Below are positions 28,828 through 43,100 of a stretch of 64,000 nucleotides of DNA, one piece after another. Both the position numbers and the translations under genes were made by a program. Location: positions 32,001 through 96,000 of the IMG/VR virus record IMGVR_UViG_3300044971_002537. One strand, written 5' to 3'. The notes below the pieces were generated by a model. That model was not told the origin of the DNA. It did not search any database and saw only the letters and a program-made list of their open reading frames with translations. The first letter of the stretch is position 1; each line of letters opens with the position of its first letter. This DNA is from a virus.

Positions 28828-29920
28828 TTTTCCCCTTGTCTTCCGTTACTTCACGATGCTCTTCACGACCACGTCTGTGATACTCGAAGTCATCAGCCCC
28901 AAACAGAATCCAATAGACAACCAATTGGTCCAAGCTGCTGGATTGTTTGCATCCATAGCTGAAGGTAACTGAATAATAGCACAGAAGGCACAGATGATAA
29001 TAGTCATTGCAAGTCCTAACCATGGATAGATAAGTGGTCACAAGGGCCGAACGGGAAGGTAGGGCTACGTCAGCCCTTCTTCATCGCTTTAACTCGGGAC
29101 AGCAACGCCTCAGCCAAATTTGCTAGCTTAGCAGCCTCATCGCTGATGATCGCTAAATTGGCCCATACGTCATCGAGTCTATCACTTTCCTCAAGGCAAT
29201 CAAAACTACACTTGATGTTAGTAATCTCAGTAGAGATATCATCAATATCATCTTGGAGGGATTCTTTATCAAACATGATTGTACCAATCAATAAGGAGGT
29301 AGAGGGAGTACTATTAAGCATGACGTTTTTTGATCGGCCTGTTGTTAGCGGTTTGCCCTTAACTGAGGACAAGAGCCGCGTCACCGCACTCCTCCATTAT
29401 ACATCATCTTCCACTGTTGTCAATACAATCCTAGAACATAATTCAGAACACAGGTGGCTTCTTGAAACCCACCCCTCCGATTCTAGAGCACTGGTCGATC
29501 CCTGACTCTTTCTTTTACTGATGCGATTCTTGTTCCTATCTCCATGTCGGGGAGAAGCCCAATCTTCGTTCACTCGGAGCCCTGCCCTAATCGGGTCAGT
29601 CCTCGTTTCTCTGCGATTCAAATATGACTAAACACACTGAGAATCAAGAACATTCGTGCAAGAATTTCAAATTCAGAAAGATTCTGGAAAGTTACTAAAT
29701 GTAGGCACATATCTATTTACTCCGACAAAAAGTAACTGCAGGTCCTGACCACCGTCAACCCGTGGTACAAGGCGAACTGAGAAGCTGGGCGGTGTCAAGG
29801 TGGATGTTGGATTTTCTCGTGGATGGGGAGGGGCTCCTAGTTCCGGGAAAAATTGGAGTAAACGCATTCCGCCCCTTTCGGGCGGAATGAACTGCATAGT
29901 ACAGCTCAGTCACCCCAGAA

Positions 29921-29951
29921 CAAAAAAGGGGGAGAGCAATCGCCCTCCCCT
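29921..29951 (-). terminator. intrinsic terminator
   Basis: GGGGAGGGC-GATT-GCTCTCCCC followed by a T-run. Confidence 0.7.
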
Positions 29952-31415: not shown

Positions 31416-31676
31416 TGTTGACTCCTTTGGTTTGTTATTTCTTATACACCCATTGTATCAGACATGTTTCTTATGTCAATAGCAATTAGTAAGAAAGACT
31501 AGCATGAAAGAGACGCGAAGTGTGTTCCGCCATGACAGGCGGAACAAACAGGAAGGCTCAGGCCCGGCGGGCCGAGGGGAGGTATTCCCTCCCCCTTACT
31601 CACCGCCCGTCCTTATACCCTAGGATTCCCTTGAGCATTCCCGCAAGCAGGACCATCATGAGCCAGAAAAGCAGCC

Positions 31677-32363
31677 TCATTCTTGGCTTTCTAGCTTATG
31701 GGAAAGTCGCTTCTTCGCGGTCCCATGTGCGAGAAATCCAACAATACTTTTCCGGTCCCTGACTTGGCACAGTTTGCACTGGTCGCAAGTCATAGATTCC
31801 TGCGTTTGAGCAGGACATACCACAATCGGCAACCCTAGGGGTGTCTTATTCCCCCGCGTAGGTGCATCTTGCGGAAGGATCACGACCACTGGACCGATGT
31901 TCAGTTGGGCATACTGGTCCGCTTCTGCCATACTATCAGCGGACAAATTGACAGTTAGTCCTCCGGATTCGTTGAGAGACTTGATAGCCTCTCGATTCTG
32001 AGAATCCGTAGGATTATAGTGGGTATAGGTCCAACCCCTAGTGTGAGCTGAAGCCCGCCCTAGTGCGGCAGTCTTTTCCGCATCAATTTTGCCGTTTTCA
32101 TCTTGAGGAAAGTCCCCGGCTTGATTGTGCCGCCACAATTGCCCCTTCGGGAATCTTTCGACTCGTTTGCAAAACGAGTCCCAATTGTCCCCGCGACCAC
32201 CTTCCCCGATTTTCCGCCAGTGCATCCCTAGGGGACCGAAGCGGGCGTAACAATCCGTATCATTAAGAGGACACTCGATAGGGCACGATTTTTTCTCAGT
32301 AGTGGAAACAGGGATTTTGCCAACTTTTATATTGTCAGATTGCATATTAAGAGAAACCCACAT
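31677..32363 (-). CDS. Cys-rich conserved phage protein
   Basis: SCP..CPL...CYA, WRHNQAGD, WTYTH, CPAQ...TC..C.LC, GF.AHG. Confidence 0.7.
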   Translation of the reverse strand: MWVSLNMQSDNIKVGKIPVSTTEKKSCPIECPLNDTDCYARFGPLGMHWRKIGEGGRGDNWDSFCKRVERFPKGQLWRHNQAGDFPQDENGKIDAEKTAALGRASAHTRGWTYTHYNPTDSQNREAIKSLNESGGLTVNLSADSMAEADQYAQLNIGPVVVILPQDAPTRGNKTPLGLPIVVCPAQTQESMTCDQCKLCQVRDRKSIVGFLAHGTAKKRLSHKLESQE

Positions 32364-32530
32364 AACTCGCTCCAAATAGGGGTGATTGACTTGACTGGTG
32401 CATTGTAACACACTATCAATAATTGTCAAGCGAAAAACTCACGATTTGAGTCGCTTGGAAGTTACTGAAGTGACACCCGCCACAAGTGGCCGGGTGTAAC
32501 AGGAAGGAAGGCGTCTTTCAGCCCACCAAT

Positions 32531-32560
32531 AAAAAAAGCCCAGCATATAGCCGGGCTTTT
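32531..32560. terminator. bidirectional intrinsic terminator
   Basis: A7-GCCCAGC-ATATA-GCCGGGC-T4. Confidence 0.55.
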
Positions 32561-32653
32561 CAAATCTCATATACTCTCCAGCCTTTCGGCCTTGTAGGCG
32601 TAGTAACATACGTTGACGCCTCGTTATTCGGTGTTGCCACCTACAGTATATGC

Positions 32654-32914
32654 TGAGCATTCACGGTTTCGAACCGCGTTTTCAAGATTGATTTGCTGAC
32701 AGGTAATTACTCTGTTGCCTTCTGCACGTATCGATCCGTGCTTCCGAGTTCTCTCTTGTGTTTTAGCCAGATTAAACTAAATGCCCGTGGTGTTTCGGTG
32801 TGGTTTATGAAATAAGCCACACAGGGTATTTAAGCTTTTCAAGCTTGTGTTAGGTACTTCGCACGTTGGGACGTTTGAAGATTAGCCGATAGGCCCCTAG
32901 GCTATTTAATGCCC
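32654..32914 (-). ncRNA. tmRNA-sized tRNA-capped structured RNA
   Basis: Acceptor GGGCATT/AATGCTC-A; T-arm CGCGG-TTCGAAA-CCGTG; many internal hairpins; no G3:U70, no recognisable tag. Confidence 0.55.
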
Positions 32915-32943
32915 CCTGTGTGTCACCCGACTGACGCCGGGAA

Positions 32944-33147
32944 TTATAGTGGTCGAAGTGGAACCGGATCAATGACCAAATCGTCAATTGATATCTTCAT
33001 CATTTCCAAATTTGACTCGAAACAATCATCATCTTCCAACATGATGGAATATATGTCGTCGAAGACAAATTGCTGAAGTTGTTCGAGTGTCATTGACTCG
33101 ACCACCAAGTTTGCTAGTGATTCTACTTGTTCTGGTGTTGGTTTCAT
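32944..33147 (-). CDS. small acidic hypothetical protein
   Basis: ATG immediately after a TATAAT promoter (near-leaderless). Confidence 0.6.
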   Translation of the reverse strand: MKPTPEQVESLANLVVESMTLEQLQQFVFDDIYSIMLEDDDCFESNLEMMKISIDDLVIDPVPLRPL

Positions 33148-33474
33148 GGGGTTATTATACCATCAGTAAAAGGAAAGTCAATCTAGAAACTCAACCTTTG
33201 TGGCAATTGCCATCAGATCATGCTCGCCATTCCCGAGATTGAATTCTTTCCCGATGTAGTAAGCGAGTATGCGATCATCAGTACCATTGATGTTGGTGAA
33301 CAGATGATCGCCGTTAGAGAAGTAGACTTTGATTGATCTCATGGTGGTCTCAGTTGGGTGTTATGTGCTAGCCGCCACAAGTGGACGGCTAGAACAGAAA
33401 GAAAGGGGCCTTTCAGCCCCTTCGGATCAGACTTCTTCCAGAGAATACTCCGAACAATAGGCTGGCTTCTTAAA

Positions 33475-33572
33475 GATCTCTGGAGGGACTTCGAAACCCT
33501 CATTCCCCTGCTTTTCTTCGTTTTCTCAGGACGAATACTGAGTGCGGGTTGTTAGCCTTACATTACAGAGAT
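33475..33572 (-). ncRNA. tRNA-like RNA with a pseudoknot in place of the anticodon loop
   Basis: ATCTCTG/CAGAGAT acceptor; D-like arm; CTCAG-TATTCGTC-CTGAG-AAA-ACGAA; T-arm GAGGG-TTTCGAAGT-CCCTC. Confidence 0.5.
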
Positions 33573-33686
33573 GACAGACCTAATCAATTGAGGATTGATC
33601 TGATCAGTATTGATGTTTTCTTCAGATTTCAGCGTATTCATATATGGGACTCACTACATATGCCCATTTTGAATACGAGGTTTTTC

Positions 33687-34328
33687 ATGATCACTTGTTT
33701 GACTTGTTTAGTAGAAAAAGATGATGACGATTTCTACCTCAGAAATAAGGCTACCGGCAACAGGTTCCGTAGGTGTAAATCTTGTAATGCAAAAGTCGCT
33801 AGAAAAAGATATGGAGCCGACGAGCTAGCCTATCAAGCTGGTAAGGTAGTCAGGCTTGAGAAAATAGCCAAATTGTCTGATGGGAAGAAGTGTTGTGTCT
33901 CATGCTCGGTCGAGAAAGAACTTTCAGACTTTTACTTTCGTAGTAAGGCTAAAGGAATTTTACAATCGAGATGTAAAGAGTGCCAGAACAATAGCAAGTA
34001 TGAGTACTACTTAGATAACAAAGACAAAATAAAGCAGAGAAAGAAGGATAGAAAGGCTATCGCGACTGAATTTGTCCGGAATATAAAGCTAGCTTCTGGC
34101 TGTTTTTTATGCGAAGAGAATGAGCCGATAGCTTTAGATTTTCATCATTTGGATCCACAAGAAAAGGGCGATAGGATCTCTAATATGACAAAAGAGAGGA
34201 GGACTCTTGAAGACATAGAGGCTGAGATTAAAAAATGTATCCTCTTATGCTCTAATTGTCATAGGAAAGTCCACGCTGGAATAATCAAATTGAAGCATGA
34301 GGGATTCGAACCCTCTTCCAAGGGTTGA
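33687..34328 (+). CDS. HNH homing endonuclease, antisense to the flanking RNA genes
   Basis: Two CxxC..F...CKxC repeats; GCFLC...ALDFHH.DP..K...EIKKC.LLC.NCHR..H. Confidence 0.85.
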   Translation: MITCLTCLVEKDDDDFYLRNKATGNRFRRCKSCNAKVARKRYGADELAYQAGKVVRLEKIAKLSDGKKCCVSCSVEKELSDFYFRSKAKGILQSRCKECQNNSKYEYYLDNKDKIKQRKKDRKAIATEFVRNIKLASGCFLCEENEPIALDFHHLDPQEKGDRISNMTKERRTLEDIEAEIKKCILLCSNCHRKVHAGIIKLKHEGFEPSSKG

Positions 34329-34362
34329 AAACCCTCGTGTCCTTCCAGTAGACGAATGCTCC
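34291..34362 (-). tRNA. tRNA-Glu(UUC)
   Basis: GGAGCAT/ATGCTTC-A; GAGGG-TTTTCAA-CCCTT; GAGGG-TTCGAAT-CCCTC. Confidence 0.9.
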
Positions 34363-34464
34363 GAATCCCGCACTCCTAGTGAGTGAACACTTGTGTGCTT
34401 ATTTACACCACCTGATAAATCAGGGCGGGATTTGAATTATAGCAGCAAATATGCTGCTGTCAAG

Positions 34465-34537
34465 TGGGCAGTCATGGAATCGAACCATGTGTGCGGCCTT
34501 ATAAGGACCGTCCTCAAAACCGTCGAGGACACTGCCC
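34465..34537 (-). tRNA. tRNA-Ile(UAU)
   Basis: GGGCAGT/ACTGCCC-A; CGGTC-CTTATAA-GGCCG; CATGG-TTCGATT-CCATG. Confidence 0.8.
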
Positions 34538-34550
34538 AAGCTCTACGAGC

Positions 34551-34844
34551 TTATTTTGCCACCAATTCCTTGACTTCGTAGACTTCCCCGCCGATCTGGG
34601 CCTGAATGATGCCCTCAAAAGCGAGACTACGATAGTTCTTCACGACCAAATCATACACAGTGATAACCTTAGCAGACTCTGGAGCGGCCTTGCCAGTGCC
34701 TACGAGGTGTTTTTTCACGTTCGTCTGGCAGTTCAAACGACGGACGTGATTATCACCACGGGCCGCACGGTAGAGAATGCTCATGATCTGGCCATTCGTG
34801 GATCTAACTTTCTGGATCATCTGGTCGCGTGTAACGTATTTCAT
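34551..34844 (-). CDS. conserved phage hypothetical (SH3-like)
   Basis: R.LNC...VKKHL.G.G....VYD....YRS. Confidence 0.65.
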   Translation of the reverse strand: MKYVTRDQMIQKVRSTNGQIMSILYRAARGDNHVRRLNCQTNVKKHLVGTGKAAPESAKVITVYDLVVKNYRSLAFEGIIQAQIGGEVYEVKELVAK

Positions 34845-35522
34845 AACTAAAGTCCTTTTGGGGGTTAAAAAACTGGTGAACTTGTTAGCCCATTATACTT
34901 CAACAGTACTGGAATGCAAGGTGGTTGTGATAAATTGTTTGTCTTCTGGATCGTTTTTCATCACATCAAACGCCCCATCAATCAGGGCTTTCGATAGCAT
35001 CACTGCCATTTCTGGTGAGATATACATAGTGTCCTTGCCACCGTCAATAGCAATCATGTTTCTGAACCGTCGAACTGTTAGTTGTTTGCTGTCCACGTTC
35101 GTATTCCTCGTTAAGTTTTAGCATTTTTGGGTAAGCATCGAAATACGTCAATCCCGATTCAATGAATTTGTAGCGTTTGTATCCGGGATGTTCCGGATTT
35201 GGTTCGAACTGATGTTTATCCATAATGGAACAATTACCCCGAGACATCTCGCTGCGTGGATCTCCATCGAAAGATGGTGGCTTTTGTTTTGCTTGATAGA
35301 TTGCATATCGTTTTGTCATAGCTAATTCTACCATACTAGAGACATAAGTCAAGTGGAAAAGTGCCGATTTGGTTAGCGGCTCAGGGTGTCGTCTACTGCG
35401 TCCCGCCACAAGTGGCCGGGACGAGCGGGAAGAAAGGGGAGGGGCAGGGCCTTTCGACCCCACCCCTCAGGGCGGCTAGGGGACACCCCTGAACCCTAGC
35501 CACCATATTCGAGGCTTTAGCC

Positions 35523-36800
35523 TCACATCAGTTGGTTGACAATCGCAGCAACCAGATCATGTCCAAACTTGGCAAACTCTGAAGTGTAGTCATCTGCCCC
35601 ACGAGTGTAGTGGTGAGCAAGTTCATGCACCATAGTTCTGCTCAGGTCTTTGTTCTTTTCCCAGAGCATAACTTCACTTTTACCGGAATTGTGCAATCCG
35701 AGGAACCCCGGATGGTGTCCATCCTTAGTATTGTACATGATCAGCTTTGGCCGAGGCAACCCATCCGAAAGACCAACGGTCTCGATCAATTCACAGATAT
35801 CGTTGTAGTGCTTAAGGACAGCTTCGCTCGGAGGAGAGATAAGGAATCCCCTGATCTCTGCTTCACAAACCCCATCAATCCCATTCAATTCTGGGATTTC
35901 GGCAATGATAGACTTGTGCCAGCGTGGATCAATCGCAGTTGCATTCGCGATGGTGAAGTTGGTAGGACATAATCCCACCTTACCAATAAGCTCTCGCCAA
36001 ACCTCAAGGAATTCTTCGCTGAATCCAGAATAGGTCTTCTCAGTTTCAACGAGTTGCATTTGGATAAGAACTGCGTCTCTGATCTTCGCGAGTCGCTCTT
36101 TCGCTTTCTCGTAATAGGTCGTATGGTACTGGATACTGTTGACCAGAGAATCCGAACTGCCAGTACGACACTCGTTGATCGTAAAGTCCATGTTGTAGTC
36201 AAACAGGGAATCATCCGTCAATTCCCGAATGAAAACTCCCTTTCGATAGATTCGACACCTTGAGACTGTGGCCTTATCAATGACCTTTTCGCCTTTCTTG
36301 TCAACGAAGTGCAGGAAGTACTTTCCAATGTTGTCGAAGTATTCCTTCGCCAGATCGGTGTATGGAACAAAAACCGCAACTTCATCGTCAGACGCCTCAA
36401 TCTTGTTCGTGAGAACCAGAAGTTCGCCCGGAATAGCGCCAGCATCCAGAGCGTTTGAGATCCATTCTCGCAATCCAAGGCAGGCAGTCGGCCAGTCTAG
36501 TGTCCCATACTCCAACGCGACGTTGAGCGGGGACTTTTTGCGACTGTGACACATGAGAACCTGCTGGAATGGAATCCCATCGCCCTTCAGGATATCTTTG
36601 GTCTCGAACGTGACTTTCTTCCCATTGATCATGAACACTGGCGATGTGCCATAGGCACGCATCCATGCCAGTGTTCCGAGGAGCGTTCCGCTCCCAAACT
36701 GGCCGATCTTGTCGTCCTTGCCACGAGAAGTGCTAACACCCAGCGTGAACATATCTTCCGGTGTGGTCACGGACTTGCTAACAATCTTAACGTACTTCAT
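35523..36800 (-). CDS. permuted GHKL-type ATPase fused to an HExxH metallopeptidase-like domain
   Basis: N-terminal LGVST.R...IGQFGSG precedes LREWISNALDA; C-terminal HELAHH. Confidence 0.6.
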   Translation of the reverse strand: MKYVKIVSKSVTTPEDMFTLGVSTSRGKDDKIGQFGSGTLLGTLAWMRAYGTSPVFMINGKKVTFETKDILKGDGIPFQQVLMCHSRKKSPLNVALEYGTLDWPTACLGLREWISNALDAGAIPGELLVLTNKIEASDDEVAVFVPYTDLAKEYFDNIGKYFLHFVDKKGEKVIDKATVSRCRIYRKGVFIRELTDDSLFDYNMDFTINECRTGSSDSLVNSIQYHTTYYEKAKERLAKIRDAVLIQMQLVETEKTYSGFSEEFLEVWRELIGKVGLCPTNFTIANATAIDPRWHKSIIAEIPELNGIDGVCEAEIRGFLISPPSEAVLKHYNDICELIETVGLSDGLPRPKLIMYNTKDGHHPGFLGLHNSGKSEVMLWEKNKDLSRTMVHELAHHYTRGADDYTSEFAKFGHDLVAAIVNQLM

Positions 36801-36985
36801 GACTGTCTCTCAACTAGGGGTTTTAAACTGACACACGAATTATACCACACATTAATGTGATGTCAAGCACATTTCTTCAGTTGGCTCAGGTGTTTGGCTT
36901 GATTGCCCACCGCCACGCCTGCCGGTGGGAACAGGAAGGAGGGGGCCTTTCGGCCCCACTCCTTCGGGTCTCTCACCACTCACCC

Positions 36986-37861
36986 CTAGGCGGCAATCGC
37001 CAGTGCCTCAGCACGGTCGACCGCGACGTCCTCAAGGGCCATCAAAGTCTGGTCCATACGGGACATTCGATCGCCACCCTTACCCGCACGCTGAACGTGC
37101 TGAACATACCCCTGCACTGAATTGTAGGCCATCCAGCGAGAAACCATGAAGTCCCCGCCGAAAGTTCGGCCCGTCCGATAGCATTCGGACATTACACGCT
37201 TAACAATCGCCTCGGTACGATTCTTGTGAATCGTGACCGATCGCGGAGTCGCGTCACTCGCGAGCGGGTAGACCGCATCGAGGAAACTCACAAGCGAGAC
37301 TTGTCTCGCTTCCATTTCCGCGACGGTCTCAGTGACCGACTTCCAGCCCTCTTTCAGGCCAGAGAACACGTCGATCAACTCATTCAGGCGAGGACGCAGG
37401 GACTGAGTGTGACGAATCGACACGCTGGTTCCAGACACTTGCTTCAGGCGAGCAAGGTTCAGGCAGGCATCTCGGAACATCCCGAGAGACGCACGGAACG
37501 GACGGTCATCATACCCCGCTGAGACGATCATGCGAGGGAAGATATTGTCAGCGGTCCCGTAAACCGCCTTGCGGTGCTCGCGGGTAGGCTCAACAACCAC
37601 GTAGTGGCCGTTTCGCCAGTGACATTGGACGTTGACACCGTCGTCAAACGCGGCCTGAGCAGCCTCAACCAAAACGACCACGTCGTCGGTGGTGTGCGGC
37701 GAATATTTCGCCGTGACCGCGTTCAGGCAGGAATTGTCGTCGGACTTGAAAAGCCCGAAGTACGGGGTTGTAAACCCGTCAGGACCGGACAAACGCAGTT
37801 TGTCAACAGTAAAGTTAAAAGTGGATCGAACAACGTCAGCAGCAGAAATCAAAGTCGTCAT
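36986..37861 (-). CDS. DUF932-like phage/plasmid protein
   Basis: F.V.K..L, R.AC.N, IRHT..L, W.AYN.VQGY.QH. Confidence 0.6.
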   Translation of the reverse strand: MTTLISAADVVRSTFNFTVDKLRLSGPDGFTTPYFGLFKSDDNSCLNAVTAKYSPHTTDDVVVLVEAAQAAFDDGVNVQCHWRNGHYVVVEPTREHRKAVYGTADNIFPRMIVSAGYDDRPFRASLGMFRDACLNLARLKQVSGTSVSIRHTQSLRPRLNELIDVFSGLKEGWKSVTETVAEMEARQVSLVSFLDAVYPLASDATPRSVTIHKNRTEAIVKRVMSECYRTGRTFGGDFMVSRWMAYNSVQGYVQHVQRAGKGGDRMSRMDQTLMALEDVAVDRAEALAIAA

Positions 37862-38063
37862 ACCAATTCTCCAGAACAGGGGTTTAAGATGGCGATTAGC
37901 CAGACAGGTACATTGTACCAGACAACGTTCCGTTGTCAAGCACAAAACAGAACTTTCCGAGGAGGACCAGAGCAACACTAAGTGTCACCCGCCACGCCTG
38001 CCGGGTGAAACAGCAAGGAAGGGGCCTTTCAGCCCCTCCCCCTAGTGGATAACCGAACTCAGC

Positions 38064-38432
38064 CTAATCCTCGAATTCCAGCCCGATTAGGTTGGCGAAA
38101 GTGATCTGATTACGATACAGTCGTTCCTCATCCTCATGAAACTTGATTTCTCGTTGTGCGTCAGTGTCCGCACAATATGCTTCCAACCGAAGTTCCTTTT
38201 CAATCTCGCGATCCTCAGCTTCCTGCTTTTTGATCTCAGCGGCAGTTTTCTCGGGATGGAGAATCTGCTTGGCCGTTCGGCCAGTGCGACCATGCAAGCG
38301 GGCCGGTAAAAGAGAATTGGGGATTTCGATAGCTTCGCTCCAAGCGTCATAGAGACCTTTCAGCAGATCTCGGGCCGGAGTCTTCAGGGAATCAATTTGC
38401 TCAATCAAAGTCATAGTCATAGTCTGGCTCAT
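38064..38432 (-). CDS. hypothetical early protein
   Basis: 122-aa ORF between repeat copies. Confidence 0.6.
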   Translation of the reverse strand: MSQTMTMTLIEQIDSLKTPARDLLKGLYDAWSEAIEIPNSLLPARLHGRTGRTAKQILHPEKTAAEIKKQEAEDREIEKELRLEAYCADTDAQREIKFHEDEERLYRNQITFANLIGLEFED

Positions 38433-38822
38433 CAGGGGTTTCCGATTCTAAGTCAAGGATTGCGAGAATAATTTCATCACGACTTGTGATGCGTATTCTA
38501 GGGAATTCACCATGCTTTGCAAGATACTTCCGGCAATAATATTGCCAGAGTTCTTTAATTGTTGCCTCTCTCATTTGGTCGTCACATAGTGAGAGGCAAT
38601 ACTGATCAGCTTTGCGGTTTCCTTGGCATTGTCAAGATCACCTTCCTTGATCTGATCTTCCAAGTACAAGGCCAATGAGCGAATCAGAATGATGTACTGT
38701 TGCTGAGTGAATGTGTTCATAGTCCCTCGTGTGTTGAATGTGTCGCTTAAGTGCTCACCGCCACGCCTGCCGGTGAGAACAGGAAGACAGGGGCCTTTCA
38801 GCCCCGTGTTTCAGCTTCTCTT

Positions 38823-39032
38823 TTACTGCTCGATTCTCACGTTTTTATTATTCGCGAAATCGAACATATAGTTAACTGAGTCTGTTGACTCGGCTGCTCT
38901 TGAGTCGGTAGGCACATACCACCGAGACATCAGTTCCTTACCTGACGCTTCTGCTTCTGCCTGTGTAGCAAATCGCAGGGCATTAGATGACCACTCACCA
39001 GCACACTTCATTTCAGGTTTCCACGACATCAT
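38823..39032 (-). CDS. hypothetical early protein
   Basis: AAGGAG RBS and promoter at ~39050. Confidence 0.65.
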   Translation of the reverse strand: MMSWKPEMKCAGEWSSNALRFATQAEAEASGKELMSRWYVPTDSRAAESTDSVNYMFDFANNKNVRIEQ

Positions 39033-39651
39033 GATTCTCCTTATGAGGAATTATACCAGAGGGATTCTAGCCTGTCAATCCTGCCACGCTTTTAAGGCTT
39101 TGATTTGTTTGATGATGGCACTCATCTGATCGCAAGCAATTGCTTTTTGTGATTTGCTGAGACCAACTCCGATTTGGGTATATCTCCGCCAGATCGGAAC
39201 TTTTGGGACGCACGCCCGATCAACATCCGACATTGATGTCTGAAGCTGTGTGTATAGTTCATCAGGGATAAGACCCTTAAGGGCGTGGATCATTTCCCAT
39301 AGAGTATTTCTTTCGGACTGGGCTACTGTCGAATCTGATTTGTATACTGTGGCCGTCATGTCTATCCCTTTGTTGTATTGTTTGCTACCCGCCACGCCTG
39401 CCGGGTAGAACGGAAAGAAAGGGGCCTGTCACCCCACCCCCTATTCCTCTTTTACCGGCCCCACGTCCTGTTGCTTGCCACACTACCCTCTAGGGCACCC
39501 TCGGCGATTACAGCTAGGGCGGTCTCTCTACCCCCCACTACGTTCCTCGCAAGCCTACGAGCCTCTAAAGCATTCTCCGCGTCGATGTAAAACGCTGGGA
39601 GGAAAACCTGTTCCCCGTCTCGTTCCGTTGTTGCCATAATCTCAAAACGTC

Positions 39652-40197
39652 TCATGATTGTCCTCTTTTTACTGCGACTAAATCAACTCCGATGATTTTT
39701 GCTACTGCAATACACATATCAAATTGACAGGTCGGTTTTCCGGTTTCGAATTCAGAGATAAATCTGAGTCCTACGCCACACATATCTGCTAGTTCACTTT
39801 GTTTAATTCCTGCCTTTTTTCTCCAAGATCTACAATATCTCCCTAGATCGGCAAGATTATCAATATTTGCTTTGTCTGATATACCTAGGGATTCTAGTAT
39901 ACCAATTGATTCAAATTTCTCTAAGCAGATTTGGAATTGCTCTATTACTAATCTTGGAGGACAGGAAAACCAATCCCTCGAACTCCTAATAGAGAATTTC
40001 TTCAGGACATCTCTGACTTGACTTTCTGCTTCAAAGTGGTCTTTAGTTTGTGTCGACCACTCTAATGTTGACCTTCCCGGCAGCACCGAGGACAGATTAG
40101 AAAATCTAGTTTCGACGTCTGTAGTGGCCCCCAGTTTAGTTAGACCGGGGGACCACTCGTTTGTTAGAACATACACATATCCGATTTCGTTCGCCAT
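39652..40197 (-). CDS. T5orf172/GIY-YIG-like domain fused to an XRE (HipB-like) HTH
   Basis: GYVYVLTN...TKLGAT...R...L; Q.ELA..CGVG.RFISE.E.GK.T. Confidence 0.75.
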   Translation of the reverse strand: MANEIGYVYVLTNEWSPGLTKLGATTDVETRFSNLSSVLPGRSTLEWSTQTKDHFEAESQVRDVLKKFSIRSSRDWFSCPPRLVIEQFQICLEKFESIGILESLGISDKANIDNLADLGRYCRSWRKKAGIKQSELADMCGVGLRFISEFETGKPTCQFDMCIAVAKIIGVDLVAVKRGQS

Positions 40198-43100
40198 AAT
40201 CTCTTTTCTATGTAGGAAGTGGCTCGTGGTCCATCACAACCCCGTCAGGGATTTTCACGAAAATCCGATTTCCACAGATCCGAGCCTTGACCTTCCCGTG
40301 CATTGTAGGGAACTCGACAGCATTGTCAAGGCTCTTGAAGATTTCGCTGGAAACTTCCTGATTTCCAGTCATCCGAATCCCGAGGATCGAGTCTCCAGAT
40401 GAGAATGTGCTCCCTGACACCCAGATCCCCCGCAGGTTGCCCTGTTCGTCGCGTGTCCAGAACGTGAGTGAGCAGTGACGCTGGCCTGAAGTGCTCTTGG
40501 TCTTGACCATGGTCTTGATTGAAGTTCTCATAATTGACAATCCAATAGGGGTGAAGCGGGCTGACCATCCCTTGATGGCCTGTGTTGTTTGTTTTGCTAC
40601 CCGCCACGCCTGCCGGGTAGAACCGCAAGGTAGAGGCCTGTCACCCCACCCTTAGTACTGGCCGCTCGTGTCCAATTAAGCTAGTGGCCAGACTTTGACC
40701 ATAATGATTGTCTCGAAGACGTATGTGGACACTTTGTCTACAACAGTGTTGATTGCATCGGTGAAGCCCAATGCTCTGACTTCCTGTTGGATTTTCCAAG
40801 CAGAAGCAAAAGTGATTTCAACACAGTATGATTGCATGATTTTAATTCCTGTAAGGTTTAGGGGCCGTTAGGCCCCATTGTAATAAATCCGCATTTCCCG
40901 TCAAGCCCTAGCCCCGAGAAATTGTTTCTTTATCAGAAATCCAATTGAGGATATGTAGAGGTTTCTCAGTAACGGTAAGATCACCTATTCCCACTACTGA
41001 GAGAAGCGAGCCATTCCCATCAGCCTTGACGCTTGTGATACTGGTCGTGCGTACATGGATCTCAGACTTGGTTGGTGACAGTGACTTGATCGTGAGGGTA
41101 ATGAACATGCTTCGCTCCATTGTTTATGTATATGGCCGGTTTTGCCGGAGGTCGTCCGACTGTGTCAGAAGTATACCACAGTGTGTATGATCAGTGCAAG
41201 CCAAATGGCAACAATTGGCCCAATTGAGTAATAAAAAACAACACAGGCCCAGTCGGTCTTCGACATTTTGAGTTCCTCCTCTTGTATTATCGACTACCCC
41301 GGCTCCGGACTTTACTCTTTTCGCTCAGTACAGGCGATTGAAACGGCTTCAGACAGATTTACCGTTTCTGAGAGTTTCGCGTGGGCGTTTCTCACGGCTA
41401 GCATTGCAGTGATCGCATCAACCTGAATCTCGTGGGTGAAGCCATTAGAGAAAATGAAAGAAACAAGGAATTTTCTCATGATCAGGTATCCGTCTGAGAG
41501 TTGTATGATGTGTCACCCGCCACGCCTGCCGGGTGAAACGGGAAGAAGGGGGCCTTTCAGCCCCCTCCCTAGCGGAACCAATCAGGCCACCCTACGAGAG
41601 GGAATCCTGAATGGCATAGAGCCGCTCGATGGGTGCCCACTCGGCCTCCAGCATCGCCTCATATCGGGCGGATTCATACAGGTCATCTAGGCGTGCCGCC
41701 TCACACTCCCACAGGGCCTTCTCAGCGTCCCACTGACGCTCTAGCTCGTCGTAGGCCTCGTATACCGGCATGGCCCATGGGTGAGTGCTATCGCACTCTA
41801 TGACGGTGTCCCCGTCCTTGAGTCGCCATTCTGGTGCGTCCCCGTGGAAGTAGGGGTTTCCGATGAAGCCGTATCCAGTAGCGTAGCCAGCCATGCCGGG
41901 GGTAACGATCATAGTACAAGTCCTGTTGAGGAAGTGAGGAGTTGGCGTCAACTGCCAGCCGCCACACCGGGTCGGCTGGAGCGGGGAGGGAGGGGTCAGT
42001 CACCCCACCCTAGGGTGGCTTACTGCTGAGCCTTACGTGCGTTGTCCTGATCTGCCTTAAGGGCGGCCATGGGCTGGACATTAGGGGGTAGCGGCACTGG
42101 TACGTAGGTGGGGCGAGGTGCCTTACCAGTAAGCATACCACGCTGAATAGCCTTGAGGGAATAGAACTTGATGTACTGCATGGGGTGTGTCCTGAGTAGA
42201 GTGAGGGATAATGACATAGCCACCCTAGGGTGACCTACTAGCCTACCCATTTGGGCATGCTCTTGACTACCTTACAGGTCACTTCGGCAATCTCCACGGG
42301 GGTAGTTTGTGCATCATGCAGGTAGGCGATTGCTTCAGCTACCGCTACGGTGGCATTGACCGCCTCAACTGTGCGAGTCAAGTAACCACCCTCAGTGCAT
42401 ACTAACTTAACTTCGTAGTACTTCATCAGAGAACTCCATTAGGGGTGGGGCTTTCGCCCCCTTAGGGAAAAGGTCAGATAGTCTTAGGCCTCAATACTAT
42501 CCCACCCTACTGGCGAGGCCTTAGCTGCCCGCATCTTCTCAGCGATAGCCACTAGTTGTTTGTCGGCCTCACTCCTTAGGTGCATTGGCATCTCCCACTT
42601 AGGGGGGGAGTAGTTGGTACTATGCCATGCACAGAATTCATCAGTAGTAGGGTTGCCGCCCCGGACAAGGGCAGACATCGTTACATCGAAGTCGAAGCCA
42701 GACTTTTCTTTGATTTCGCAGAATTCGATCATCAGGTCAGACAATTTGCCCATTTTAACTCTCCTCAGGGGGTGAATGATAGGGGGATTTTAGAGGATTC
42801 CCCCGAACCTGTCAAGCCTAGTAATTCCCCTTGTCCAACCATTCCTGATCGAGATATTCAGGAGCCGGATCATAGACGGCTGACGCGGTCTCAATCACGT
42901 CTGCGATCCAATTTTCCATTTTGGCATCTTCTTCGTTCAGAAGGGCCAACAATTCGTTGGTGTTGTTCAATTCAACGCTGGTGATTCGGTCGTCGTATCG
43001 CATCGTGGTATCTTTCGTCAGGGGTGAAACACTTGTCAGACAGTATACTATCGTCATTTTGTTTTGATTGCAACAGTAGATGTTCCATAATTTTTTACTT

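What the first reader, a model, noticed from the sequence alone, without database searches (positions are those of the whole stretch)
31522..42010. About 11 copies of a covarying two-hairpin element separating early genes like cassettes
Seen on the - strand: a GC hairpin with a GAAA/GACAG-type loop, a pyrimidine tract (e.g. TTCCTG), then G-(TT or CT bulge)-stem-loop-stem-CA. The 7-bp stem changes but stays paired: TCACCCG/CGGGTGA, CCCACCG/CGGTGGG, CTCACCG/CGGTGAG, CTACCCG/CGGGTAG, CTAGCCG/CGGCTAG, CGTCCCG/CGGGACG, CCAGCCG/CGGCTGG, ACACCCG/CGGGTGT. The loop ends in a conserved GTGG (GCAGGCGTGG in 6 copies). Copies sit just after a stop codon and before the next gene or promoter, every ~0.4-2 kb. 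Inference: a structure-recognised signal, such as an mRNA processing site (cf. T7 early RNase III sites), a boxB/put-like antitermination site, or a ssDNA recombination site that shuffles accessory genes (cf. T4-type PeSL cassettes and integron attC).
Basis: partly seen in the sequence, partly recalled or inferred. Interest (0 to 1): 0.8.

Follow-up and report, generated by a model that had tools for sequence, protein, structure and literature searches.

The report
Two-hairpin boundary marks between early phage genes
An uncultured lake phage separates its small early genes with 11-12 copies of a 65-base two-hairpin signal. Related phages have swapped, lost and reordered genes at these signals, much like the known promoter/stem-loop cassettes of T4-type phages, but what the second hairpin does is untested.

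Summary
A covariance model finds exactly 11 strong copies (53-82 bits), all on the minus strand between window 31.5 and 42.0 kb, plus a decayed 12th at 29861-29925. No Rfam family matches, and none of 185,579 bacterial species genomes carries the element.

Two corrections:
- The "pyrimidine tract" is mostly the 3' arm of hairpin 1. That hairpin is 10-16 bp long, GNRA-capped, has 19% G.U pairs and is more stable on the transcribed strand. So it is an RNA hairpin, not a U-tract terminator.
- Hairpin 2 is always 7 bp (NNNNCCG/CGGNNNN). It is paired in 99% of cells across 83 distinct copies from about 30 related lake contigs, with about 20 stem versions and essentially no G.U. It is also the most conserved part between orthologues (96% identity against 75-81% in the flanks).

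Related phages differ by cassette insertion, loss, replacement and one order swap at the elements. The crossover points are scattered across the element, and no recombinase was found. This fits homologous exchange, as at PeSLs, not attC-type site-specific recombination.

Best reading: a PeSL-like cassette boundary. It is transcribed as a tandem-hairpin punctuation mark for the mRNA (processing, stabilising or attenuating) and also serves as portable homology for gene shuffling. The RNA step is inferred, because no RNA data exist. I rate it a new variant of a known kind, of moderate interest. This scan has already noted analogous early-gene hairpin cassettes in other phage genomes.

The parts
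41951..42015 (-). Element copy 1 (stem CCAGCCG/CGGCTGG, loop ACCCGGTGTGG); gene follows with no strong promoter
   Evidence: R1 61.2 bits, E 1.9e-12; sequence
41509..41572 (-). Element copy 2 (TCACCCG/CGGGTGA); hairpin 1 is 12 bp with a GAAA loop; start codon 33 nt after hairpin 2
   Evidence: R1 80.5 bits; fold
40593..40656 (-). Element copy 3 (CTACCCG/CGGGTAG); hairpin 1 has three G.U pairs (-12.6 kcal/mol on the minus strand, -3.6 on the plus strand)
   Evidence: R1 70.2 bits
39381..39444 (-). Element copy 4 (CTACCCG/CGGGTAG); start codon 25 nt after hairpin 2
   Evidence: R1 77.8 bits
38750..38813 (-). Element copy 5 (CTCACCG/CGGTGAG); the relative L046 has two elements and an extra 1-kb cassette at this place
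   Evidence: R1 75.8 bits
37981..38044 (-). Element copy 6 (TCACCCG/CGGGTGA); sigma-70 promoter 45 nt downstream, then the DUF932 gene
   Evidence: R1 82.1 bits; promoter 37939-37912; Pfam
36902..36965 (-). Element copy 7 (CCCACCG/CGGTGGG); consensus promoter 39 nt downstream, then a 425-aa gene
   Evidence: R1 79.0 bits; promoter 36866-36839
35395..35459 (-). Element copy 8 (CGTCCCG/CGGGACG, loop GCCACTTGTGG); long hairpin 1; promoter 46 nt downstream
   Evidence: R1 53.2 bits
33364..33428 (-). Element copy 9 (CTAGCCG/CGGCTAG, loop TCCACTTGTGG); start codon 25 nt after hairpin 2
   Evidence: R1 68.4 bits
32469..32533 (-). Element copy 10 (ACACCCG/CGGGTGT); sits directly after a canonical U-tract terminator (32561-32533) and 43 nt before a promoter
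   Evidence: R1 65.3 bits; terminator and promoter
31519..31582 (-). Element copy 11 (TGTTCCG/CGGAACA, loop CCTGTCATGG); orthologues carry CGTT/AACG, CATC/GATG and CATT/AATG; promoter 43 nt downstream
   Evidence: R1 56.3 bits
29861..29925 (-). Decayed 12th copy: hairpin-1 5' half kept (GGGGTGACTGAG), hairpin 2 replaced by CATTCCGCCCC-GAAA-GGGGCGGAATG; lies after a canonical terminator (29950-29929)
   Evidence: R1 29.6 bits, E 5e-5
31452..37939 (-). Span holding the five sigma-70 promoters that follow copies 6, 7, 8, 10 and 11, each 39-46 nt after hairpin 2 (37939-37912, 36866-36839, 35352-35325, 32429-32402, 31479-31452)

Best explanation
The element is a lineage-specific cassette boundary, analogous to the PeSL (promoter-early stem-loop) modules of T4-type phages. 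It works at two levels.

RNA level (inferred). The early region is read leftward from strong sigma-70 promoters as polycistronic RNA. Each boundary folds into two adjacent hairpins: H1 (10-16 bp, G-rich 5' arm, C/U-rich 3' arm, GNRA-type loop) and, after a linker that is 0-4 nt in most copies, H2 (a 7-bp strictly Watson-Crick stem capped by the conserved CCG-G-CA...TG-G-CGG top). I think this pair punctuates the message. An endonuclease cuts at or near the conserved C-N-G-Y-T linker. The most likely enzyme is the host RNase III acting on the roughly two helical turns made by the stacked stems; a structure-guided RNase acting next to H2 is the alternative. The upstream mRNA would then end in H1, protected at its 3' end, and the downstream mRNA would begin with H2 followed by a CA-rich leader and the ribosome site. 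The stable pair probably also damps read-through into the next unit or promoter.

DNA level (shown by comparison). The conserved 65-90 bp act as portable homology. Related phages have inserted, deleted, replaced and reordered the small accessory genes at these elements by ordinary homologous recombination or gene conversion.
For: - Real, strand-specific, intergenic family: 11 copies at 53-82 bits, none elsewhere in the record and none on the other strand. No Rfam match.
- H1 behaves as an RNA on the sense strand. It has 155 G.U among 807 predicted pairs. Mean folding energy is -15.2 kcal/mol on the minus strand against -12.0 on the plus strand, and 66 of 83 copies are more stable on the minus strand. 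Loops are GAAA, GAGA or GCAA type.
- H1 is not a U-tract terminator. Only 3 of 11 copies pass a terminator scan, and the tract is paired. Copies 10 and 12 sit directly behind separate canonical terminators.
- H2 pairing is under strong constraint. It is 99% paired in 83 distinct copies with about 20 stem versions. Clean compensatory changes occur between orthologues: TCAC to TTAC, TGTT to CGTT, CATC or CATT, and CCAG to CCAC. H2 is 96% identical between orthologous pairs, against 75% and 81% in the flanks.
- Geometry: H1 is typically 10-16 bp (commonly 12-13), H2 with its extensions is about 11-12 bp, and the linker is 0-4 nt in most copies. E. coli RNase III substrates typically span two helical turns and can be built from coaxially stacked short helices; single cuts leave protective 3' hairpins (PMC1540722).
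- Six of 11 copies are followed by a ribosome site and start codon 25-65 nt on, with no promoter, so they must be transcribed through.
- Shuffling: the relative L046 has an extra 1-kb cassette between two elements where the window has one. Cassettes A and B1 are in reverse order in L107 and L124. H2 is exchanged as a unit between identical flanks (REL_16350 against L119_2123). L124:791 is a chimeric H2.
- H2 is inherited more with the downstream unit: the conditional entropy of the stem is 0.27 bits given the 12 nt after H2, 0.41 given the downstream flank and 0.65 given the upstream flank.
- PeSLs are defined as poly-G/poly-C stem-loops plus sigma-70 early promoters that flank ORFans and mediate such exchanges (PMC2839356; PMC4122927).
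- A more distant 173-kb relative (L152) has a different multi-hairpin repeat in the same niche.
Against: - No RNA ends, cleavage or expression data exist for this phage, so the processing step is inference only.
- Each stem alone is shorter than a classical RNase III site.
- The near absence of G.U in H2 (none among about 80 variable pairs of about 20 stem versions, against 19% in H1) is unusual for an RNA that only needs to fold. It fits a DNA hairpin equally well, or a reader that needs a regular helix.
- In 5 of 11 copies a promoter lies between H2 and the next gene, so H2 is absent from that promoter's own transcript. Even so, it shows compensatory evolution there (site 11).
- Copy 10 lies behind a strong terminator, where little read-through RNA is expected.
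- The conserved loop end GTGG-CGG implies a sequence-specific reader that I could not identify.
- Breakpoints in this mosaic region also occur at gene ends and promoters away from the element.
Confidence: 0.45

Rival explanations
1. H2 is the binding hairpin of a dedicated, still unidentified phage (or host) protein acting on nascent RNA. This could be an N/nut-, put- or Nun-like system that changes RNA polymerase's response to downstream stops, or a translational or decay regulator that switches the whole early set together.
For: - The pattern of a conserved hairpin top (CCG-G-CA...TG-G-CGG, loop end GTGG) with a free-varying but always paired base is typical of protein-bound hairpins.
- H1 loops are GNRA or boxB-like.
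- H2 is the most conserved part between orthologues.
- Every copy has the orientation of transcription.
Against: - There is no boxA-like box.
- No NusG/RfaH-type or Q-type protein is found in the 140 kb held, and no arginine-rich small protein stands out among the early ORFs.
- Lambda and HK022 need two sites, not 11, from my own knowledge.
- The apical geometry differs between copies (G.G mismatch, 5' bulge, or a continuous 9-bp stem at site 11), which argues against one rigid protein-RNA fit.
Confidence: 0.15
2. H2 acts as a folded single-stranded DNA site (integron attC-like, or an IS200/REP-like hairpin) at which a recombinase excises and inserts gene cassettes.
For: - Cassette gain, loss and reordering occur at the elements.
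- H2 pairing is strictly Watson-Crick with almost no G.U.
- An invariant G and T lie just 5' of the stem, all copies have one orientation, and unpaired bases occur in the stem top.
- The record is only about 72% complete, so a recombinase could lie outside it.
Against: - No tyrosine or serine recombinase and no Y1 (IS200-type) transposase is found in 140 kb.
- Crossover points are scattered: inside H1, between the tract and H2, inside the H2 loop (L124:791), and 10-20 nt past H2.
- There is no RYYYAAC/GTTRRRY pair of boxes.
- H1, with its many G.U pairs and sense-strand bias, points to RNA.
Confidence: 0.1
3. The element is simply a tandem-hairpin transcription stop or attenuator that insulates each cassette, as proposed for the PeSL stem-loop. 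H2 would be a second stop hairpin with no further role.
For: - The element lies after stop codons, and in 5 of 11 cases just before a promoter.
- Both stems are very stable, at -15 and -17 kcal/mol.
- A PeSL stem-loop of poly-G/poly-C type cut reporter expression about as much as a strong terminator (PMC2839356).
Against: - Eight of 11 copies lack a U tract, and the tract is paired into H1.
- No U run follows H2.
- Six downstream genes have no promoter of their own and depend on read-through.
- The phage uses canonical U-tract terminators elsewhere, twice directly in front of an element.
- A plain stop hairpin would not need the conserved H2 top or strict Watson-Crick pairs.
Confidence: 0.15
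4. The copies are a recently spread, functionless repeat. On this view the palindrome is kept perfect by replication template-switching or gene conversion, not by selection.
For: - H2 is exchanged as a whole unit between copies.
- Only Watson-Crick pairs are seen, as templated correction would give.
Against: - About 20 different stems, with clean compensatory changes in orthologues, persist across phages only 65-95% identical.
- H2 is more conserved than the neighbouring coding sequence.
- H1, although equally stable, is not kept perfect.
- Orientation and intergenic placement are strict.
Confidence: 0.05

Closest known systems
PeSL (promoter-early stem-loop) cassettes of T4-type phages (Arbiol et al. 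2010, PMC2839356; Comeau et al. 2014, PMC4122927)
   Same: - Repeated composite intergenic motif in a hyperplastic early region full of small genes of unknown function.
- G-run/C-run stem-loop.
- Consensus sigma-70 early promoters.
- Insertions, deletions and replacements between close relatives bounded by the motif.
- Crossovers at varying points within the motif, with no dedicated recombinase.
   Different: - Not homologous, and the host phage is a long-tailed, siphovirus-like lake phage, not a T4-type myovirus.
- There are two hairpins. The second has a fixed 7-bp length, a conserved top and strict Watson-Crick covariation, which has no PeSL counterpart.
- The promoter is present in only 5 of 11 copies and lies about 40 nt after the hairpins, not overlapping them.
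- Mini-circles have not been tested.
RNase III processing sites of the phage T7 early region (R0.3-R1.3) and of Bacillus phage SP82 early RNA (from my own knowledge; substrate rules from PMC1540722)
   Same: - Conserved structured sites between early cistrons of a polycistronic RNA, spaced 0.4-2 kb apart.
- Covarying stems.
- Cutting would leave a protective 3' hairpin.
   Different: - T7 sites are one long irregular hairpin of about two turns with an internal loop. Here two separate hairpins would have to stack to reach that length.
- Cleavage has not been tested.
- No phage RNase III gene was found, and the host is unknown.
Integron attC sites and gene cassettes
   Same: - Array of same-orientation structured sites separating mostly promoter-less accessory genes.
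- Structure is more conserved than sequence in part of the stem.
- Cassettes differ between relatives.
   Different: - No integrase found.
- No R/L box pairs.
- Crossover points are not fixed.
- The site is shorter.
- The partner hairpin H1 shows RNA-type G.U pairing.
Lambdoid nut (boxA-boxB) and HK022 put antitermination RNAs (from my own knowledge)
   Same: - H1 is a GC hairpin with a GNRA or boxB-like loop.
- put is also a two-hairpin RNA of about 65-70 nt whose stems covary between its copies.
   Different: - No boxA.
- There are 11-13 copies per genome, not two.
- No N, Q or NusG-like gene was found.
- The elements lie after genes, not just downstream of the operon promoter.

Membership tests
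PeSL cassettes (T4-type phages) | Stable intergenic stem-loop, often a poly-G run followed by a poly-C run | tested here: met
   H1 has a G-rich 5' arm and a C/U-rich 3' arm, mean -15.2 kcal/mol
PeSL cassettes (T4-type phages) | Sigma-70 consensus early promoter as part of the motif | tested here: inconclusive
   5 of 11 copies have TTGACA-N16/17-TAnAAT 39-46 nt after H2; 6 have none before the next start codon
PeSL cassettes (T4-type phages) | Indels and replacements between related phages bounded by the motif, with variable crossover points | tested here: met
   Extra cassette in L046; A/B1 order swap in L107 and L124; H2 unit swap; chimeric H2
PeSL cassettes (T4-type phages) | Sequence homology to RB49/phi1 PeSLs and a T4-type genome | tested here: not met
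   No near match in 50,697 phage records. The 2090-aa tape-measure protein and the remote terminase hits point to a non-T4 long-tailed phage
PeSL cassettes (T4-type phages) | Excised mini-circles formed by exchange between neighbouring motifs | not testable with these tools
   Only assembled contigs were available
Intrinsic (Rho-independent) terminator | GC-rich hairpin followed directly by a U tract | tested here: not met
   Only 3 of 11 H1 pass the scan; the tract pairs within H1; no U run follows H2
Integron attC | Inverted R''/L''-L'/R' boxes with RYYYAAC...GTTRRRY | tested here: not met
   GTT precedes the stem, but no AAC partner follows it; the conserved core is CCG/CGG
Integron attC | Tyrosine recombinase (IntI) in the element | tested here: not met
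   PF00589 gives no match in the 139,854-bp record, although the record is about 72% complete
Integron attC | One fixed crossover point | tested here: not met
   Exchange points lie in H1, at the tract/H2 boundary, in the H2 loop and in the leader
T7-type RNase III processing site | About two helical turns of double-stranded RNA, possibly through coaxial stacking | tested here: inconclusive
   H1 is typically 10-16 bp (commonly 12-13), H2 about 11-12 bp, linker 0-4 nt in most copies; rule taken from PMC1540722
T7-type RNase III processing site | Cleavage by RNase III in vivo or in vitro | not testable with these tools
   No RNA run holds the region; the 'RNA?' runs are probably DNA
Lambdoid nut site | boxA (CGCUCUUA-like) next to a boxB hairpin | tested here: not met
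   No boxA-like word lies at any element
Any Rfam family | Covariance-model match | tested here: not met
   Only tRNAs reach gathering scores; nothing on the elements at E <= 5

The most novel reading that the evidence does not exclude
Hairpin 2 is the address tag of a dedicated, undescribed system. One form would be a phage protein that reads the conserved CCG-G-CA...TG-G-CGG cap on nascent RNA to cut or re-programme every early message at once. The other would be a recombinase that reads the same hairpin in single-stranded DNA and moves cassettes, an integron-like system in a virulent phage. The strict Watson-Crick rule, the fixed 7-bp length and the fact that H2 is better conserved than the genes around it are not explained by a generic stem-loop.
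Probability: 0.2. Interest if true: 0.8.

Novelty: new variant of a known kind. Interest (0 to 1): 0.5.

Why it matters
Large virulent phages keep their host-takeover and anti-defence genes in fast-changing arrays of tiny genes. How those arrays are expressed evenly, and how they gain and lose genes without wrecking their neighbours, is only partly understood, with PeSLs the main model.

This lake-phage clade gives a clean natural data set for that question: about 30 contigs, about 20 stem versions, and cassette insertions, losses and an order swap. It shows a standard two-hairpin junction acting as the unit of exchange.

The second hairpin's unusual constraints make a specific reader testable with simple reporter, RNase and pull-down assays.

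A distant relative uses an unrelated hairpin repeat in the same position. This suggests that the niche, not the sequence, is what is conserved.

Tried and rejected
- Rfam at gathering scores and at E <= 5 on the region: nothing on the elements.
- Megablast of the region against 50,697 phage records: no match.
- Exact core 16-mer in IMG/VR: one true relative, and the other roughly 95 stretches are single chance hits in GC-rich contigs.
- Extended pattern in 185,579 bacterial species genomes: 4 single matches with no hairpin and no homology to the phage. So this is not a host repeat.
- RNA evidence: no RNA holder is listed. The two 'RNA?' wastewater runs cover about 10% of the words and are probably DNA. 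Contigs cannot show ends.
- Relatives found through the terminase gene: the diverged ones (45-56% identity) have only about 3 kb upstream of the terminase gene, so they stop short of the array.
- The 425-aa protein gave no related locus in IMG/VR.
- Pseudoknot between the tract (CCUG) and the H2 loop (CAGG): fits only some copies, so rejected by eye.
- Enclosing stem around both hairpins: 165-nt folds show no shared long-range pairing.
- Fixed-column count of the H1 extension: only 61% paired and close to the slid controls, because purine and pyrimidine arms pair in several registers. Per-sequence folds are the better evidence.
- Tile-based breakpoint profile: breaks are enriched at elements (0.52 against 0.28), but the method is noisy because tiles that contain the repeat hit several places.
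- ops/RfaH, sigma-54, Chi, CRISPR-repeat mimic and tRNA-minihelix resemblances: considered from memory, and none fits the invariant positions.
- Family searches in the record for integrase, resolvase, Y1 transposase, RNase III, RecA, RecT, NusG and two Q families: all empty. The record is incomplete, so absence is not proof.
- Host: not identified. The HIP1 word is not enriched.

Full report
**Setting**

The window is bases 32001-96000 of a single 139,854-bp IMG/VR virus record (linear, about 72% complete by CheckV). The record has a 2090-aa tape-measure protein, a remote large terminase (best phage hits 23-28% identity), an rIIA-like gene, an RNA ligase, many homing-endonuclease genes and six tRNAs in the window. 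It is held by many lake-water metagenomes. The host is unknown. Minus-strand genes from about 43 kb down to 3 kb are preceded by about 30 near-consensus TTGACA-N16/17-TATAAT promoters. The finding therefore lies in the promoter-proximal 12 kb of a leftward early region.

**Observation**

All are paired 7/7 and all are on the minus strand.

I collected relatives in two ways. An exact search for the 16-base core in IMG/VR gave one 29.7-kb relative, which the tools returned as L068 and L046 (contiguous; 80-97% identical). A longer pattern in JGI metagenomes gave 27 contigs, most with several copies. One further relative, L150, came from a DUF7227 homologue.

From 83 distinct elements (alignment A2) I built covariance model R1. 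In the full record it finds the 11 copies at 53-82 bits, a decayed 12th at 29861-29925 (29.6 bits), and nothing else of note. Rfam has no match. Four matches in 185,579 bacterial species genomes are chance.

**Anatomy**

Hairpin 2 (H2) has the form NNNNCCG - 10 or 11 nt - CGGNNNN.
- Across 83 distinct copies the stem is 99% paired.
- The four outer pairs each show 3-4 Watson-Crick types: CG 56 / UA 21 / AU 5; UA 37 / CG 32 / GC 9 / AU 4; AU 44 / CG 21 / UA 10 / GC 7; CG 48 / AU 22 / GC 7 / UA 6.
- There is a single G.U, and it sits in a chimeric copy.
- 0/500 column shuffles reach the observed covariation, and slid partners give only 39-51% pairing.

The loop is not free. C45-G53 is invariant and A46-U52 is common, which gives 2-3 further pairs above a G.G mismatch or a one-base 5' bulge. 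At site 11 the stem is a continuous 9 bp. Invariant positions are C, G and T in the C-N-G-Y-T linker, CCG/CGG, and the loop end (G)TGG.

The "pyrimidine tract" pairs with a purine-rich stretch 5' of the GC core. This gives 10-16 bp in most copies and leaves a linker of 0-4 nt in most copies. H1 has 155 G.U among 807 predicted pairs, against 13 of 895 for H2. It is on average 3.2 kcal/mol more stable on the minus strand, with 66 of 83 copies favouring that strand. So H1 is an RNA-type hairpin on the sense strand. Only 3 of 11 copies pass a hairpin-plus-U-tract scan.

Past H2 there is a conserved CA, a G-poor leader (A 33%, C 27%, G 17%) and often a CTGAGAC-like box, even in copies that are followed by a promoter.

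**Context**

In six copies a ribosome site and start codon follow 25-65 nt after H2 with no promoter. In five copies a sigma-70 promoter starts 39-46 nt after H2. Copies 10 and 12 lie directly behind canonical U-tract terminators.

The genes between the elements are mostly small and without Pfam matches. The exceptions are DUF932, DUF7227 and a T5orf172+HTH protein.

**Evolution**

I clustered the 250-nt flanks of 113 element instances. The results:
- The same upstream gene is joined to different downstream genes. For example, U3 is joined to D14 or D2; U2 to D5, D19, D4 or D2; and U7 to D11, D1 or D14.
- L046 has two elements and a 1-kb extra cassette where the window has copy 5.
- Cassettes A (window 41510-41129) and B1 (41132-40898) lie in the order B1-A, each bounded by an element, in L107 and L124. 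These come from different samples.
- H2 can be replaced as a unit between identical flanks (REL_16350 against L119_2123).
- L124:791 joins the 5' arm of one H2 to the 3' arm of another.

Exchange points occur within H1, between the tract and H2, within the loop, and 10-20 nt into the leader. Allele-graph cycles are found for the S1/S2, S2/S3 and S5/S6 segment pairs and none inside H2.

H2 is best predicted by what lies downstream. Its conditional entropy is 0.27 bits given the next 12 nt, 0.41 given the downstream flank, and 0.65 given the upstream flank.

Orthologous copies show clean compensatory double changes: TCAC to TTAC, TGTT to CGTT, CATC or CATT, and CCAG to CCAC. In 84 orthologous pairs the identities are: H2 96%, tract 89%, H1 79%, upstream flank 75%, downstream flank 81%.

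Contigs laid from two lake DNA runs also show joints at or in elements. One example is 38764/39399 in the H2 loops of copies 5 and 4, at low depth. The same runs show indels unrelated to the element.

No integrase, resolvase, Y1 transposase, RecA or RecT is found in the held 140 kb.

**Interpretation**

The DNA-level role matches PeSLs: portable homology at which cassettes are exchanged, with scattered crossovers and no recombinase (PMC2839356; PMC4122927).

The RNA-level role is inferred. H1 is clearly an RNA hairpin, the elements are co-oriented with transcription, and six of them must be read through. Two stems of about 12 bp with a 0-4-nt linker would stack into about two helical turns. 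That is the length typical of RNase III sites, which can be built from stacked short helices and whose single cuts leave protective 3' hairpins (PMC1540722). I therefore favour a punctuation mark that cuts, stabilises or attenuates the message.

Three points weigh against this:
- H2 almost lacks G.U pairs.
- H2 is conserved upstream of promoters and behind a terminator.
- The conserved loop end has no identified reader.

These points keep a protein-binding hairpin and a DNA hairpin alive as rivals. Known antitermination parts were sought and not found: no boxA and no NusG-type or Q-type protein.

**Wider pattern**

L152 is a 173-kb contig that shares the DUF7227, DUF932 and GHKL-type early genes. 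It has no R1 hit. It carries at least 9 copies of an unrelated ~90-nt multi-hairpin repeat in the same intergenic niche, and I read TTGACA...TATAAT promoters shortly after most copies.

The scan's own notes list about a hundred 'early-gene hairpin cassette' findings in other phage genomes. I did not check those notes.

**Verdict**

This is a real, well-supported repeat family. It is a new variant of the PeSL kind of cassette boundary, with an unexplained and strongly constrained second hairpin. The biochemical function is untested.

Noticed in passing
L152:5354-13892: A 173-kb metagenomic relative shares the DUF7227, DUF932 and GHKL-type early genes. It has its own unrelated ~90-nt intergenic repeat in at least 9 copies: hairpin AAGTCnTTG-5 nt-CAAnGACTT, a GC-rich middle, then a second similar hairpin. 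I read a TTGACA..TATAAT promoter shortly after most copies. Same niche, different sequence.
   Followed up: partly
whole record (window and L132-L136): CCWGG is absent (0 found, about 187 expected from base composition) and GGATCC occurs once (about 26 expected). This suggests strong avoidance of EcoRII/Dcm-type and BamHI-type sites.
   Followed up: no
window 39652-40197 (-): A T5orf172 + helix-turn-helix gene is replaced by about 109 nt in the IMG/VR relative and in two lake runs. This presence/absence difference is not bounded by the element, as expected for a selfish gene.
   Followed up: partly
window 35523-36800 (-): The 425-aa early protein (no Pfam match; another first-stage note reads it as a permuted GHKL ATPase) is missing from several relatives (L103, L105, L106, L127), which go from the DUF932 gene to about 35095.
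   Followed up: no
window 33549-34362: A 259-aa plus-strand ORF (no Pfam match; endonuclease role not shown), antisense to the early operon, and tRNA-Glu lie in a 945-nt stretch that is replaced by 511 unrelated nt in the relative. The breakpoint sits exactly at the 5' edge of element 9.
   Followed up: no
window 32545-32950 (-): About 400 nt without a credible ORF lie between a promoter-driven small gene and a strong terminator (32561-32533). Other first-stage notes call this tRNA-like structured RNA. Rfam gives only weak sub-threshold hits here.
   Followed up: no
L124:755-818: A chimeric hairpin 2 (5' arm CTACCCG, 3' arm CGGGTGA) points to a crossover inside the 16-base conserved loop core. 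It is the only clearly mismatched stem of this kind among 113 instances. An assembly chimera cannot be excluded.
   Followed up: partly
window 42444-42816: 371 nt just upstream of the first element are replaced by 50 nt in two lake runs. One end coincides with the -35 box of the promoter at 42815.
   Followed up: no
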